From: Octopus vulgaris
Taxonomy: Eukaryota
Length of the DNA stretch: 64,000 nucleotides
Assembly (NCBI GenBank): GCA_951406725.2
Contig: OX597820.1
Span: 78,740,001-78,804,000, forward strand
Direction: 5' to 3'
Below, in pieces: positions 14,601 to 57,310 of the stretch (position 1 is its first letter; every line of letters starts with the position of its first letter). A program made the translations under genes and the position numbers. The notes below the pieces were generated by a model. The model saw nothing but the letters and a program-made list of their open reading frames with translations. It did not search any database and was not told where the DNA came from.

Positions 14601-15170
14601 TGTCATTTTGTGAACAAAACCATCTCTATAAACAATGCGATCGAAGACAGAAAAACAGGTTATGTGTGTATATGCACATTTTGTGGGTTCTTGGCCTCTC
14701 ATCAGCACCTTAAGCAACCTATCAACTGTCCACGAACGCATTGTTTAATTACCCATTAGGTTTAGTTATGTAACATAATTAGATAGGCCAATTTGCATAT
14801 CAAACATATTCCTGACAAATGGTACGTATATAATTTCTGTCAAGGTAACAGTATTTCGTTTTCTTGCCATAATATACTATTAAGTATATTATTAGTTTAT
14901 TAAGTCAATACTGTGTCTTGCCGTGTGTCAACAATACTTTAATTTCATTTGAAGTTACCAAGAATGTGTTTGATATGCAAATTGATCTATCCAATTATGT
15001 TGCACAACTAAACCTCGCGAATGTTTAAACAATGTGTTCGTAGATAGTTGATAGGTTGGATGAGACGCTGATGTGAGGACAAGAATCCTCGAAATATGCA
15101 TATACACCCATTATCTATCTTTCTATCCTCGATCGCATTATTTACACAGACGTGTTTGTTTACGAAACGT
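14601..15170. mobile_element. Old foldback element (~210-bp inverted arms) with an HHR motif in each arm
   Basis: Arms ~14601-14815 and ~14955-15170; two-arm consensus GGTG-CTGATGA-GAGG..CCTC-GAAA-TATGCATA-TA-CACC (14665-14709 minus, 15064-15108 plus). Confidence 0.7.
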
Positions 15171-15542
15171 TCTAACTTACAGTGCTGGCTTTGGTTTCTA
15201 TAGAAAATCTAGAGACAACCTTAAAATGAAATTATAGCACTGTTAACACACAGAACTGACTTAATACTAAGAGGTGTATCATGACAGCAATTAAATTAAG
15301 ACCCGTAATTATGTATTGTGCACAGATTGCAAAAGCTATTCAAAGCAATAACCAACTATCTTAAACCAGCATTTTGGTTTTCTAGAAAGAACACACAAAA
15401 GACCAAAGTTCTTTTGATCACAAATAATCAACCGATTTTTGCACAATTAAAGAAAAGTATTTTAAAACGAAGAATCTTACTTTGAAATTTTGATTGTTTC
15501 TAGCTAACACCTGAATGTCATCTATTTGTAATTAGTTGGGTG

Positions 15543-15862
15543 AGGGTGCCTGGCTTAGAGATTAGGGCATTCACCTCACGATTGTAAGGTCATGAGTTCG
15601 GTTCCTGGCGATGTGCTGTGAGGCTGAGGAAGACATTTTATTTTACGTTGCTCCAGTTCGCTCGGTTGGCAAAAATGAGTAGTACCTGTAATTCAAAGGG
15701 CCAGCCTTGTGACATTCTGTGTCACACGGAGTCACCCTTAGTACTATGTTAAGGGTTTGCATGTCTGTGGAGTACTCATCCACTTGCACGTTAATTCCAT
15801 GAGCGAGCTGTTTTGTTGACTTGATCAATTGGAAACCTTGTCGTCGTAACCGACGGAGTGTC
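15543..15862 (+). mobile_element. tRNA-derived SINE family C
   Basis: A/B-box-like head (TGGCTTAGAG..GTTCGGTTCC), body GGCAAAAATGAGTAGTACCTG; homologous to 35367-35690 and 43484-44685. Confidence 0.85.
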
Positions 15863-16639
15863 ACTTACTGTAATTAGTTATTTGTGGGAAAATTTAAAAC
15901 TCATATTTTTGCCTCCGAACATAACATCCCTTTTACAACCTATAAACCAAGGGGTATTTTCTATTTCTAAAGGCTTTTTTTTTTGTAATCGTTCGAACAA
16001 GCAATTAAAGTTACAACAAGAAAAGAAGCAGTCCCACTGGTACTAATTCAATGTTTAAAACTGCCTTTGAAAATATTCATGAATCGCAAGATAAAGTCAT
16101 AACAAAGAACAGGAGAGCTGTTTGAAATCATATTTTGCTATATAATGCTATTTCATCACATTTTATCACATTTTACTGCATTGCGTTAATGATTTCAGTG
16201 ATGTTCTGAGCGAGAGAAAATGGCTATCATTTGAAGAGTGTTTGGCGACGGTGAAACTGTGGATGTTCGTGGTTTCTTTGAATCCCATTCGAAAGAATTA
16301 ACTAATCACGAAGACCTCCTGCATTTGTATCAAAGTTGTGCGTACGAAGAAGCAAATGATGTAACAAGCGAGAAAAATGAACAGCAAATCGATAGAATTA
16401 CTGTAAAAGAATTCGATTCTTCACGAATTTGAAAAGTTCACATAATAAATAATCGAATATTGCATGGAAGCTCAGAGAATTTTGGACAAAGAATTCCACT
16501 GCAATGGATAGATGCATGCGAAATACAATAAAAGAATATGATTTTAAAATGCAGTTGAAATGATCTTGGATAAAAACATTATCGAATAAAACTCGATTCG
16601 TAATTTTCTTATCATTTTTATATATAACGTTTTTTAATC

Positions 16640-17935
16640 TTTGGATTGCATCCACGCTGGGGCACCACTTTGAAGGGTTTGGTCGAACAAATCGCCCCGA
16701 ATTGATTACTGTTTTGTTTTTTGTTTTGTTTTTTTTTAAGTCTTGTAATTATTCTATCGATCTCTTTTATTACGTTGCCGGAGCATAAACAAACCAACAA
16801 CGGTTGTAAAGCGGCGTTGGGGAAGAAACACACACACAGAAGCATATATACATATAGAGAGAGAGGTACACATGCACATACACACACACACACACATGTA
16901 TATATATATATATATATATATATATATATATATATATATATATATATATATATAGTAGTAGTAACAGAAAGGAGGAATTTCGATTATCCCCACGTGGTGA
17001 GTTGTAATGTATATAAGAAATTAAAAAAGGAAAATACGCACATTTACATAGTTTTAATATAATTTTTAATATATCGACTGGTTTCGCTATCGCTATTCAT
17101 GATATTATGTTTTAATTATTTGAATAAGTATTTTTTCTTAAGAAGAAATTTTGCCCATGTTGGGTGTGATGATATTTACGAGTGAATGACTTCACAAGTA
17201 GCAAAATAAGGTGAGGTAATTGCTTATCGTTATTATTGTTATTGATGTGGGTAAGGGAGATAACTGTTCAGCTTTCGGTAATGGGAGGGGAATATATATG
17301 TACAGACAAAAACAAGTTTCGAAAAGCTTGTTTAGTGAGGGAATTTATGTACAGTGATGTAATCGTGAATTGAAATATGTAAAAAGATAAAAGTTGGTTA
17401 TGCGTGCATATCAAGACGTGTTCTGTGTTTTTCAATGAAAAAAGTTTCTGTATTTAAACGTTCTTGTGGGGAGATTGTGTCTTTGCACTGATAGAAGGGG
17501 AAGACTATGAGACTAGTTTTAATTCCCCCACTAAACAAGTTTTGCGAGACTTGTTTTTGTCTGTACATATATATTCCCCTCCCATCATTCACTCGTAAAT
17601 ATCATCACACACAACATGGACAAAATTTCTTCTTAAGAAAAAATACATATTTAAATAAGTAAAAGATAATATCATGAATAGCGATAGCGAAACCGGTCGA
17701 TATATTAAAAATTATACTAAAACTATGTAAGCGTGCGTATTTTCCTTTTTTAATTTCTTCTATATGTATATATATATATATATATATATATACGACGGGC
17801 TTCCGTAGAGCTTCCGTCCACGAAATTCGCGAACGAGGCATTGGTCAACCCGAGCAATGGTAGAAGACACTAGCCCAAAGTTCCCCGCAGTGGGACTGAA
17901 CCCGAAACGAGCTTCTTTATCACACACCCATGCTA
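16640..17935 (-). mobile_element. SINE family A split by a foldback element inserted in its central (TA)n
   Basis: 3' body 16640-16850, head 17791-17935, insert 16953-17762. Confidence 0.8.
16953..17762. mobile_element. TA-flanked foldback element with A3-U8 HHR variant
   Basis: Inverted arms ~17011-17345 and ~17521-17762; plus strand 17669-17703 ATATC-ATGAATA-GC-GATA-GC-GAAAC-CG-GTC-GATAT, mirrored in the other arm. Confidence 0.75.
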
Positions 17936-18269
17936 GAACCAATATATAATATACGTACATACATATATATGTGTGTGTATACTATATATATATACACACA
18001 TATATATATATGTGTGTGTGTGTATATATATATATGTATGTATACTCTATATATAGATATATATGTAATATATATATATAATATTATATATTACTTCAAC
18101 CTCTTTTTTACATATATGTGTGTGTATACCATATACAAATACACATATATATATATATATACAAATACATATATATATATATATATATATATATATATAT
18201 AGTATTCGAATACTATTTTCTTCCACCTTGTTTCGCATTTATGTGCTTACTCTGGTATATACATATATA

Positions 18270-55446: not shown

Positions 55447-56443
55447 GAAATTGGGGTGAGTACTTGATAATTATAAGCACCTGTGTATACCGTTTGGTGG
55501 TGTAGGTGGTGGAGTAAATTGATCAAAATAAAAATAAAAACATGAGGCGAAGGATTCAGCGGTACATATGTTTCGGGCCTTTATTAGACAGATTTATAAC
55601 AAAGCATAATGTATGTCTGTGGCCTTCTTCAGCCGCACAACAGCTTCCACAAGGACATGTGTTACATCAAAATTCTTGGTTGGGGATGCAAATCCTCTCG
55701 TTCACGTACGACATAATGCAGCGCAGCAGCATAGAATTGAAGCGTCCATCTCTTTCTTCTCTCAATGTAGAATGAGGAAACTTGGATGGTGAGGTAATGT
55801 AAACAAATAAATACGTATATAGAGGTGAAGATGGAGGGTTCGGGACGAGGGATAAAAAATATATATAAAAAATGTACGTATAGAATAATATAAAATGTAG
55901 AGGATAAAGATATAAAGAGTTGTAAGGAGGTATAAAGAAATATAAAGAAATATAAATAAATGTAAAGGCATAAGGTTGTAAAGTAAAAATAGAAATGGAA
56001 ATAATAGTAAAAGAAGTAAAAGAACCTGATAAAACATGATAAAAGTGTAAAAGAATGTAAAGATAAGGGATGTATAGAGGTCGCGGACCAAGCATGGTGG
56101 TCGTCCGCGACCTCTATACATCCCTTATCTTTACATTCTTTTACACTTTTATCATGTTTTTATCAGGTTCTTTTACTTCTTTTACTATTATTTCCATTTC
56201 TATTTTACTTTTACAACCTTATGCCTTTACATTTATTTATATTTCTTTATATTTCTTTATACCTCCTTACAACTCTTTATATCTTTATCCTCTACATTTT
56301 ATATTATTCTATACGTACATTTTTTATATATATTTTTTATCCTCGTCCCGAACCCTCCATCTTCACCTCTATATACGTATTTATTTATTTACATTACCTC
56401 AACATCCAAGTTTCCTCATTCTACATTGAGAGAAGAAAGAGAT
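55447..56443 (-). mobile_element. Young TA-flanked element: 341-bp near-perfect inverted arms plus an HHR-bearing unique segment
   Basis: Arms 55748-56088 and 56103-56443 with a 14-nt loop; unique segment 55447-55747. Confidence 0.85.
55559..55636 (-). ncRNA. Type-I hammerhead ribozyme, canonical core
   Basis: GCGG-CTGAAGA-A-GGCC...GGCC-C-GAAAC-ATAT-GTA-CCGC; palindromic helix III ACATATGT. Confidence 0.7.
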
Positions 56444-56490
56444 ATATATATATATATATATATATATATATATATATATATATATATATA

Positions 56491-56885
56491 CTAGCAGTAT
56501 CGCCCGGCGTTGCTCGGGTTTGTAAGGGAAATAATTATATAAGCATTTTTAGAGATGTAAAGTATAATAGCCATCTCAATATGGCTAACCACAAAGGGGG
56601 AGGGGTGTTACTGTAGCTTTTTACGTTCTGAGATTTAATAATAAATTTTAGAGAGTTACTTCCCTTATATATGTCAAAAATGGATTAAAAATGGGAAAAA
56701 TTGATGGTAAATTTTTTTTTAAATCGTAGACTCATCGTAGACGCGCGCTAATACCCAGACGGTCTCGATATGAATCACGACTATAAGATACCCGGTTTTG
56801 GTTAAACTGCACCGCAAAATGTGGGAGTAGTTAGGAATCTAAATCGTAGGAGACAGACACACAACCTCACTTTTATATATAAAGA
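56491..56885 (-). mobile_element. Non-autonomous Helitron (family 1)
   Basis: Same TC/CTAG termini and hairpin as 37784-38077, A^T site. Confidence 0.9.
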
Positions 56886-56987
56886 TTTCCTCTATTTACA
56901 TAATATTGAGGTCTCTTTCTTTCTTTTGTTATCTTACTGTTTTTACCAATATACATACATATATATATATATATAAATATATATATA

Positions 56988-57310
56988 GTTACAGAGATGT
57001 ACTTGCATAGCAAGTGACTTGATCTGAGATCGTGTGCTGGAACGAAAACAGTTGCAGCGTTGAAGGTGTTTATAAGCCATTTAAGAAACACACAAAAACC
57101 GTTAGATTCACTTCAACATTTAAATTTAATTTGTCAAAATATTTTCGTCGCTTTGAGACCGCGACCTGTTAGCACGATATTTTTGTCAGTGAACAGGTCG
57201 CGGTCTCAAAGCGACGAAAATATTTTGGCAAATTAAATTTAAATGTTGAAGTGAATGTAACGGTTTTTGTGTGTTTCTTAAATGGCTTACAAACACCTTC
57301 TACGCTGCAA
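56988..57310. mobile_element. TA-flanked foldback element (119-bp arms) with G3-C8 HHR variant
   Basis: Arms 57052-57170 and 57192-57310. Confidence 0.85.
57182..57232 (+). ncRNA. Type-I HHR motif, G3-C8 core variant
   Basis: TTTGTCA-GTGAACA-G-GTCGC-GGTCTCAAA-GCGAC-GAAA-ATAT-TT-TGGCAAA (TGACAAA in the other arm); 7-bp helix I, 5-bp helix II. Confidence 0.6.

What the first reader, a model, noticed from the sequence alone, without database searches (positions are those of the whole stretch)
14601..57310. Shared asymmetric foldback architecture: (TA)n | short unique end | arm | spacer | inverted arm | (TA)n
Seen in unrelated elements at 16953-17762, 18270-18624, 36540-36913, 37378-37745, 54288-55007, 55447-56443 and 56988-57310, with a more symmetric case at 14601-15170. 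One arm ends flush at the TA tract while the other is offset by ~50-300 unique bases, unlike terminal MITE TIRs. In all seven the flush arm is on the right. Established: PLE insertions often carry an inverted partial pLTR at the 5' end. Inference: a fold-back or template-switch step during reverse transcription produces these; the one-sided polarity may reflect strand bias at this locus.
Basis: partly seen in the sequence, partly recalled or inferred. Interest (0 to 1): 0.7.

Follow-up and report, generated by a model that had tools for sequence, protein, structure and literature searches.

The report
Inverted Penelope-like retrotransposon end fragments
These lopsided palindromes in TA repeats are real, and most carry outward-facing hammerhead-ribozyme-like motifs, so they are most likely the already described head-to-head end fragments of Penelope-like retrotransposons; the claimed right-hand bias is probably chance.

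Summary
The architecture is real. All 7 named elements have inverted arms (83-98% identical) that end 0-5 nt from the right-hand TA tract. Only 6 of 7 have a left TA tract.

Identity: most likely short, 5'-truncated Penelope-like element (PLE) insertions.
- Complete type-I hammerhead motifs lie in 4 of 7, partial ones in 2 of 7, none in 1. All point outward.
- Two cores have compensated 3:8 base pairs.
- In-window relatives show two fixed 3' ends, with and without a 'tail'.
- An inverted copy, a one-sided tail and (TA)n targeting are all published for PLEs.

Mechanism: plain fold-back fits the short loops. It does not explain 3 elements in which each arm holds sequence the other lacks. Priming of both target ends at two start sites is my preferred, inferred model.

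Polarity: not established. The count is 9 of 10 (p=0.02, post hoc), with one counter-example, and non-inverted PLE pieces lie 8 plus to 6 minus.

Extras: offsets run up to 303 nt against the published 30-40, and a 3-kb telomeric array sits at the tip of one PLE hairpin.

Verdict: new members of a known kind, low interest.

The parts
14580..15167 (.). E0: head-to-head pLTR pair, hammerhead-like motif in both arms (best at 15068-15104, +), about 26-nt tail on the left, ends at (TGTA)n
16955..17766 (-). E1: tail 16955-17009; arms 17010-17345 and 17521-17764; hammerhead motif with A3:U8 core in both arms (17100 on -, 17674 on +); sits in the internal TA tract of a SINE (16627-17908)
17401..17529 (-). 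43-codon ORF remnant in the E1 spacer. It resembles a PLE GIY-YIG endonuclease C-terminus (resemblance recalled). One unnamed homologue, P0001, 56% identity, E=1.5e-6
   Evidence: Pfam and Atlas found nothing
18270..18620 (-). E2: about 144-nt left extension; arms 18414-18513 and 18524-18620; only the 3' half of a hammerhead motif (GAA, stem III, GUA site at about 18552), core absent at the inversion point
36500..36914 (-). E3: inverted arms, right arm flush with TA; no hammerhead motif and no left TA tract, so PLE membership is unproven
37378..37744 (.). E4: tail about 40-48 nt; inner hairpin 37488-37586; a CTGAAGA core on the + (tail-less) copy only; the left copy appears to lack about 100 nt internally
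40491..41010 (.). Old inverted pair (69%), flush on the LEFT at (ATGT)n with extra sequence on the right; hammerhead-like core on - in the spacer; counter-example to the polarity
51066..54217 (.). T: symmetric, tail-less 'family X' pair (51066-51151 and 54134-54217, 82%) around a 2968-nt (TTAGGG)n-type array (51166-54133), with about 28-33 nt duplicated at the hairpin tip
54288..55006 (-). E5: 118-nt tail; arms 98% identical; complete hammerhead motif with 6-bp stem I in both arms (54519-54441 on -, 54893-54971 on +)
55027..55229 (.). E5b (not in the finding): family X; 77-nt tail on the left, short arm; the tail-less right copy holds stem II and the 3' half of a Hydra-type hammerhead motif
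55447..56441 (-). E6: 340-nt arms, 14-nt loop; the 303-nt unique end holds a complete hammerhead motif (55632-55563, -), so the flush arm ends about 187 nt upstream of the ribozyme
56988..57309 (.). E7: 65-nt tail; arms 97% identical; complete hammerhead motif with G3:C8 core and 7-bp stem I only on the + (tail-less) copy (57189-57225)
18202..18253 (+). Solo family-X tail between TA runs; same 3' end as the E5b tail
20586..21410 (+). Family K copy with an extension of about 95 nt, interrupted by a LINE/SINE insertion; tail-less K copies at 43120-43337 and 44017-44234

Best explanation
These are most likely short, 5'-truncated insertions of several Penelope-like retrotransposon (PLE) families into (TA)n microsatellites, each made of two pseudo-LTR 3' pieces joined head to head, one ending with the PLE 'tail' and the other without it. 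Shown here: inverted arms, outward-facing hammerhead-like motifs, ends at TA tracts, and two recurrent 3' endpoints within families X and K. Taken from the literature: a PLE protein cuts and extends both strands of AT-rich DNA and starts reverse transcription at two neighbouring RNA sites that bracket the tail (PMC11167929). Inferred: the endonuclease opens the (TA)n tract. One DNA end primes at the distal site (tail-bearing arm) and the other at the proximal site or at an internal TA-like microhomology (flush arm), probably on the same RNA. The two cDNAs stall near the same point and join through a short palindrome or microhomology, which leaves a loop of a few to a few hundred bases. Later deletions trim one arm. 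The insertions are probably inert, and which side carries the tail is probably random.
For: Hammerhead descriptor (type-I layout, as tabulated in File S2 of PMC8557442): 8 hits at score >=20 against a mean of 0.73 (maximum 3) in 30 shuffles. In a relaxed re-run, 6 of the 14 top hits lie in the named elements, which are 6% of the window (p=1e-4), and 9 of 14 have a TA tract within 200 nt downstream (background 0.17, p=1e-4). All motifs in arms point outward. Cores G3:C8 (E7) and A3:U8 (E1) keep the 3-8 pair whose swap partly rescues cleavage in PMC11167929. The family-X stem III and cleavage segment match Hydra-clade entries of PMC8557442. Family X has 3 tail-less ends within about 5 nt of each other and 2 tail ends at one point; family K has a tail-less end (one duplicated event) and one end about 95 nt further on. 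Cleavage site to flush end is 31-84 nt and to tail end about 90-210 nt, against 85-92 nt to the RT start in PAc. TA microhomology at flush junctions sums to 15 nt over 9 junctions against 4.3 expected (p=0.0015). In E7, E5b and 40491-40990 the tail-less arm carries ribozyme sequence missing from the tail-bearing arm, so neither arm is a plain copy of the other. 10 of 11 pairs are asymmetric (p=0.006 against 50%), which suggests the two starts are coupled. The published structure is the same: an inverted 5'-truncated copy, a tail at one end only, and (TA)n preference (PMC8557442; PMC3846280).
Against: Rfam listed no hammerhead family among the 150 of 328 rows shown for the window, nor for the two sub-regions tried. 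Minimum-energy folds beat shuffles only modestly, in 2 of 7 motifs (z -2.3 and -1.8). The descriptor and its score were written after I had seen some of the motifs. E3 has no motif, and E2 and E4 have only half. No RT or endonuclease domain was confirmed: the E1 remnant hits only an unnamed 84-aa protein, and Pfam, Atlas and three homologue searches were empty. Offsets of 118-303 nt exceed the published 30-40-nt tail, and the E6 flush end lies upstream of the ribozyme, so it cannot be a PAc-like second start site. Loops of 21 nt or less in E2, E4, E6, E7 and T are just what intramolecular fold-back predicts. The microhomology total includes one 6-nt case and one element of uncertain type (13340-13427). 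The joining step is wholly inferred.
Confidence: 0.6

Rival explanations
1. Same PLE origin, but one priming event: the first cDNA folds back on itself (self-priming) and copies itself until it is captured by the other TA end through microhomology. Later central deletions remove part of either arm.
For: Loops of 10, ~14, 14, 21 and ~5 nt in E2, E4, E6, E7 and T, with hairpins at the tips. E6 ends upstream of its ribozyme at a 2-nt AT match. The E1 spacer reads on the tail-bearing strand. Internal deletions of about 91-100 nt in one arm of E1 and E4 show that arms get trimmed. Self-priming was proposed in PMC3846280.
Against: Needs an extra deletion in each of E7, E5b and 40491-40990, where the tail-less arm is the longer one at the centre. 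It does not by itself explain why flush ends recur at one family-specific site that also ends both arms of T.
Confidence: 0.3
2. The palindromes are fixed non-autonomous families (MITE-like, or hairpin master copies amplified as a unit).
For: Each has long inverted arms and sits in TA, and T has two flush ends.
Against: Arms are subterminal on one side and carry ribozyme-like motifs. None of the 7 has a second copy of its whole structure in the window, and families X and K recur with different structures. MITE-like repeats in the window (29060-29250, 35136-35359) have short terminal repeats and no descriptor hit.
Confidence: 0.05
3. Assembly or amplification artefact (chimeric fold-back reads).
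For: Fold-back chimeras are a known artefact class (own knowledge); raw reads were not available.
Against: Arms differ by 2-31% with indels, end at TA tracts and at family-specific sites, and are oriented by the ribozyme motif.
Confidence: 0.02
4. The right-flush polarity is a real locus effect (replication direction, host transcription, or selection against sense-strand ribozymes).
For: 9 of 10 asymmetric pairs have the tail on the left (p=0.021). Against solo pieces, Fisher p=0.033.
Against: Post hoc in one chosen window. One counter-example exists. Solo PLE-like pieces lie 8 plus and 6 minus, and SINE tail matches lie 8 plus and 9 minus. Four of the nine lie within 3 kb. No host gene was identified in the window.
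Confidence: 0.15

Closest known systems
Inverted-pLTR insertions with a one-sided tail in EN+ PLEs (Penelope/Poseidon, Neptune, Nematis, Naiad, Hydra; PMC8557442 Fig. 2 legend, PMC3846280 Pen2a_Av)
   Same: Head-to-head 5'-truncated copies, extension at one end only, hammerhead motifs in the pLTR, (TA)n targets with no discernible TSD, palindromes at the inverted junction.
   Different: Here only end fragments of 0.2-1 kb without an intact ORF. Offsets are 26-303 nt against the published 30-40 nt; in E6 the offset contains the ribozyme itself.
Hydra-clade PLEs (PMC8557442; (TA)n-targeting, canonical hammerhead; includes an Octopus family)
   Same: The family-X segment from GAA through stem III, cleavage site and stem I' follows the Hydra-2_aMil / Hydra-2_aJap layout, and the elements target (TA)n.
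   Different: No RT or endonuclease sequence is available to place any family in the clade. Five of six window motifs searched were absent from that paper's supplement.
PAc (Poseidon, Anolis) in vitro mechanism (PMC11167929)
   Same: Two RT start sites downstream of the ribozyme bracket the tail; AT-rich target; both strands cut and extended.
   Different: The parts read do not show how inverted pairs are joined. The E6 flush end is upstream of the ribozyme.
L1 twin priming (own knowledge)
   Same: A second target end primes internally by microhomology and gives an inverted 5' segment.
   Different: In L1 the inverted part is not a long duplicate of the 3' part; here both arms copy the same region.
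Non-LTR retrozymes (bioRxiv 10.64898/2026.07.22.740005)
   Same: Short non-coding PLE-derived sequences with a type-I hammerhead.
   Different: Retrozymes are defined there as tandem direct repeats; these are inverted pairs or single pieces.

Membership tests
EN+ Penelope-like elements | PLE-type reverse transcriptase | tested here: inconclusive
   No RT remnant seen in six-frame translations of the elements. They are 3'-end fragments, so none is expected.
EN+ Penelope-like elements | GIY-YIG endonuclease at the ORF end | tested here: inconclusive
   The E1 spacer ORF matches only unnamed P0001 (E=1.5e-6). Pfam, Atlas and word searches were empty. The E5 spacer search was empty. The likeness to the PLE endonuclease end is recalled.
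EN+ Penelope-like elements | Type-I hammerhead motif in the pLTR near the 3' end | tested here: met
   Complete in E1, E5, E6 and E7, partial in E2 and E4, absent in E3; exceeds shuffles. Not found by Rfam. Cleavage activity was not testable.
EN+ Penelope-like elements | Inverted 5'-truncated copy, head to head | tested here: met
   Motifs point outward in the arms of E0, E1, E2, E5, E7 and T.
EN+ Penelope-like elements | Tail at one end only (30-40 nt in print) | tested here: met
   One-sided extension in 10 of 11 pairs; two endpoints in families X and K. Lengths are mostly longer than published.
EN+ Penelope-like elements | Microsatellite, especially (TA)n, targeting | tested here: met
   7 of 7 end at a TA tract on the right and 6 of 7 on the left.
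Hydra, Neptune or Naiad clade | RT phylogeny and domain order | not testable with these tools
   No full ORF in the window and no host genome provided. Canonical hammerheads argue against Naiad for E1, E5, E6 and E7 (PMC8557442).
MITE (TIR DNA transposon derivative) | Inverted repeats at both termini | tested here: not met
   One arm is 40-303 nt inside the end in 7 of 7.
MITE (TIR DNA transposon derivative) | Uniform structure among copies | tested here: not met
   Family X occurs as a symmetric pair, an asymmetric pair and a solo tail. The other families are single in the window.
Non-LTR retrozyme | Tandem direct units, each with a hammerhead | tested here: not met
   No tandem unit with a descriptor hit among the TRF arrays.

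The most novel reading that the evidence does not exclude
Genomic footprint of overlapping twin priming: both ends of a cut (TA)n tract prime on one PLE RNA at two start sites, both cDNAs copy the same region, and they join at a palindrome. This would explain together why pairs are nearly always asymmetric, why loops are short and why either arm can be the longer. It also implies family-specific tails of 70-150 nt. In addition, the tip of one such hairpin appears to have broken and taken up a 3-kb (TTAGGG)n array with a duplication of about 30 nt, so PLE palindromes may seed interstitial telomeric sequence.
Probability: 0.3. Interest if true: 0.55.

Novelty: new member of a known kind. Interest (0 to 1): 0.25.

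Why it matters
As a structure it is ordinary: it is the published PLE insertion signature, which automatic annotation often mislabels as MITE or unknown. Its use is practical. A genome with about 11 such inverted pairs and about 14 single pieces per 64 kb holds a very large natural dataset for an open question that PMC8557442 states explicitly: how PLE tandem and inverted structures form. Spacer strand, loop length and flush-end position per family would separate fold-back from two-ended priming. The compensated ribozyme cores and the telomeric array at a hairpin tip are small extra leads.

Tried and rejected
- Rfam, whole window and two sub-regions: only microsatellite- or hairpin-driven miRNA-type matches below the gathering score; no hammerhead family among the rows shown.
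- A first, loose ribozyme pattern (core plus stem II only) did not beat shuffles at one mismatch: 10 hits against 0-7. It was replaced by the full three-stem descriptor.
- Minimum-energy folding is weak support at best.
- Protein searches for the E1 and E5 spacers: three word-based searches were empty; Pfam and Atlas were empty for the E1 fragment and P0001. P0002 (Ig repeats) and P0003 were treated as spurious.
- Five of six window motifs, and the PFY-type peptide motifs (one unrelated hit), were not found in the supplement of PMC8557442.
- 13340-13427 (hairpin 19 nt from a right-hand TA run, inside a ~94-nt tandem repeat, no clear ribozyme) was left out of the polarity count but kept in the microhomology sum. 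With it, polarity is 10 of 11 (p=0.012).
- Inverted SINE pairs and short hairpins in the 38-row scan were set aside as separate insertions or as too short.
- MITE and artefact explanations were rejected (see rivals).
The host was not determined; the SINEs look cephalopod-like by recall only.

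
Full report
Setting. The window is AT-rich, microsatellite-dense eukaryotic repeat DNA: 38% G+C, 139 tandem-repeat rows, and 52 merged TA tracts. It also holds many SINE copies, LINE remnants (one zf-RVT hit at 4177-4803) and a telomeric-type array. The host was not determined; the SINEs look cephalopod-like by recall only. No host genome or reads were available.

1. Observation. Self-comparison of the window and of all 51 intervals between TA tracts confirms inverted arms in all seven named elements and at 14.6 kb. 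Identities are 83-98% (79% at 14.6 kb), spacers 10-235 nt, right arms 0-5 nt from the TA tract, and left offsets 40-303 nt. An unbiased tiled scan of the masked window gave 38 inverted matches. The named elements score 103-368 bits in their best segments, against at most 33.7 in three shuffles. The pattern is not quite as written: 36540-36913 has no left TA tract, 14601-15170 has none on either side and carries about 26 extra bases on the left, and three further pairs were missed. These are 55027-55229 (same polarity), 40491-40990 (69% identity, flush on the left at (ATGT)n) and 51066-54217 (flush at both ends).

2. What they are. A three-stem type-I hammerhead descriptor, laid out like the table in File S2 of PMC8557442, gave 8 hits at score 20 or more against a mean of 0.73 in 30 shuffles. 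The top hits are both arms of 54288-55006, the right arm of 56988-57309, the unique end of 55447-56441, the right arm of 16955-17766 (its left arm scores 18) and TA-flanked single pieces at 43155, 44052 and 48406. In a relaxed re-run, 6 of the 14 best hits fell in the named elements (6% of the window, p=1e-4), and 9 of 14 had a TA tract within 200 nt downstream (background 0.17, p=1e-4). Every motif in an arm points outward, so the arms are head to head with their 3' ends at the target. Two cores have swapped but still complementary positions 3 and 8 (G3:C8 at 57189; A3:U8 at 17674 and 17100); the C3G/G8C swap partly rescues cleavage in PMC11167929. Results against: Rfam listed no hammerhead family (150 of 328 rows shown), energy folding supported only 2 of 7 motifs modestly, and I wrote the descriptor after seeing some of the motifs. 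18270-18620 keeps only the 3' half of the motif, 37378-37744 only the core, and 36500-36914 none, so that last element is unassigned. Protein evidence is thin. The 43-codon remnant at 17401-17529 (minus strand) matches one unnamed 84-aa protein (56%, E=1.5e-6) and resembles a PLE endonuclease C-terminus by recall only. Pfam, Atlas and three word searches added nothing.

Families with several copies in the window show what the offset is. Family X, whose stem III and cleavage segment follow Hydra-clade entries, has three ends within about 5 nt of one site (51066, 54217, 55229) and two ends about 75 nt further on (55027, 18253). Family K has a tail-less end (43337 and 44234, one locally duplicated event) and one end about 95 nt further on (21410). 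Family Z has one shared end in five copies. Two fixed 3' ends per family is the PLE tail signature. From the predicted cleavage site, flush ends lie 31-84 nt and tail ends about 90-210 nt downstream. The exception is 55447-56441, whose flush arm stops about 187 nt upstream of the ribozyme.

3. Mechanism. From print: PAc protein cuts and extends both strands of AT-rich DNA and starts reverse transcription at two adjacent RNA sites that bracket the tail, 85-92 nt past the ribozyme cut (PMC11167929). Shown here: TA-like microhomology at the flush junctions (15 nt over 9 junctions against 4.3 expected, p=0.0015; one junction gives 6 nt); asymmetry in 10 of 11 pairs; loops of 21 nt or less in five pairs; and three pairs (56988-57309, 55027-55229, 40491-40990) in which the tail-less arm holds ribozyme sequence absent from the tail-bearing arm. 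Inferred: both target ends prime, one at each start site, probably on one RNA, and the two cDNAs join at a palindrome. I put this at about 0.6. Single-primer fold-back with capture at the far TA end and later trimming (about 0.3) fits the short loops and 55447-56441 well, but needs an extra deletion in those three pairs. Internal deletions of about 91-100 nt in two other arms show that such trimming happens. MITE and artefact readings are unlikely.

Polarity. Counting all pairs gives 9 tail-left, 1 tail-right and 1 symmetric (9 of 10, p=0.021; 7 of 7 alone, p=0.016). Non-inverted PLE-like pieces lie 8 on plus (13552, 18202, 20328, 20586, 21880, 24833, 43120/44017, 48333) and 6 on minus (10928, 11937, 38090, 42669/43610, 44784, 62957); I tallied these by hand, and some motifs are weak. 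SINE head matches lie 5 plus to 9 minus and tail matches 8 to 9. A locus-wide strand bias is therefore not supported. The residual skew among inverted pairs (Fisher p=0.033) is post hoc in a selected window and needs a genome-wide count.

4. Comparison with what is known. PMC8557442 describes an inverted 5'-truncated copy next to the 5' end, a 30-40-bp tail often at one end only, (TA)n preference with undiscernible TSDs, and Octopus Naiad and Hydra families that target (TA)n (passages, section 15 and supplement parts). PMC3846280 describes the same layout and proposes self-priming from palindromes at the inverted junction (passages). PMC13282606 lists 31 recently active Penelope-like families in Octopus vulgaris (part 1 of 3). 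The retrozyme preprint 10.64898/2026.07.22.740005 was read in part 1 of 5, PMC11167929 in parts 1-2 of 4, and PMC2246262 in passages. The elements work like EN+ PLE insertions and meet four structural membership features. The RT and endonuclease features could not be confirmed, and the clade cannot be assigned. Differences from print are the longer offsets and the ribozyme-containing offset of 55447-56441. I did not find the one-RNA, two-ended priming model in the five literature searches (listings only for most papers). The library lacks most subscription papers, including the older PLE reviews, so this does not show that it is unpublished. Only one of 59 parts of the PMC8557442 supplement was read in full.

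5. Extra lead. At 51066-54217 two tail-less family-X arms (82% identical) enclose 2968 nt of degenerate (TTAGGG)n with an internal duplication of about 1.17 kb. About 28-33 nt at the hairpin tip are present on both sides of the array. Insertion of telomeric repeats at double-strand breaks, sometimes with target duplication and microhomology, is reported in mammals (PMC2246262). Breakage of a PLE hairpin tip followed by such repair is my inference, from a single case.

6. Verdict. New members of a known kind; interest 0.25.

Noticed in passing
window 51066-54217: A 2968-nt degenerate (TTAGGG)n array with a ~1.17-kb internal duplication sits at the tip of a symmetric PLE-like hairpin, with about 28-33 nt duplicated on both sides; it may be an interstitial telomeric insertion at a broken palindrome.
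   Followed up: partly
window 57189, 17674/17100, 63056: Hammerhead-like cores with non-standard but complementary 3:8 pairs (G:C, A:U, U:A).
   Followed up: partly
window 16627-17908, 20044-21626, 24662-25229, 48170-48803, 62716-63641: PLE-like pieces sit repeatedly in the internal (TA)n tract between the head and tail of one SINE family, splitting the SINE.
   Followed up: partly
window 10249-10873: TA-flanked piece with a 152-codon minus-strand ORF that resembles the C-terminus of a restriction-endonuclease-type LINE (recalled; no Pfam hit). It has a small hairpin at 10767-10808 and a 41-nt match to 19339-19379.
   Followed up: partly
window 42669-43337 and 43610-44234: Local tandem duplication of about 1 kb that carries family Z and family K PLE-like pieces (97-99% identical in the K part).
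   Followed up: partly
window 13063-13446: TA-flanked piece with ~94-nt tandem units whose last unit is inverted (13340-13427) close to the right-hand TA run; type unclear.
   Followed up: partly
window 37784-38078, 56491-56886, 58455-58838: Three plus-strand copies of one repeat, two of them directly after TA tracts that flank the inverted elements; Helitron-like by recall only.
   Followed up: no
window 29060-29250 and 35136-35359: Short elements with terminal inverted repeats (MITE-like), used as a contrast to the asymmetric pairs.
   Followed up: partly
window 4094-4859 and 5590-6900: Two diverged (74%) minus-strand LINE 3' remnants, with a zf-RVT hit at 4177-4803.
   Followed up: partly
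window 22988-23579, 41916-42569, 46400-47024, 49591-50675: A second SINE family with internal tandem expansions of 143-184-nt units.
   Followed up: no
window 58186-58454 and 59736-60004: A 269-nt direct duplication at 98% identity, 1.55 kb apart.
   Followed up: no
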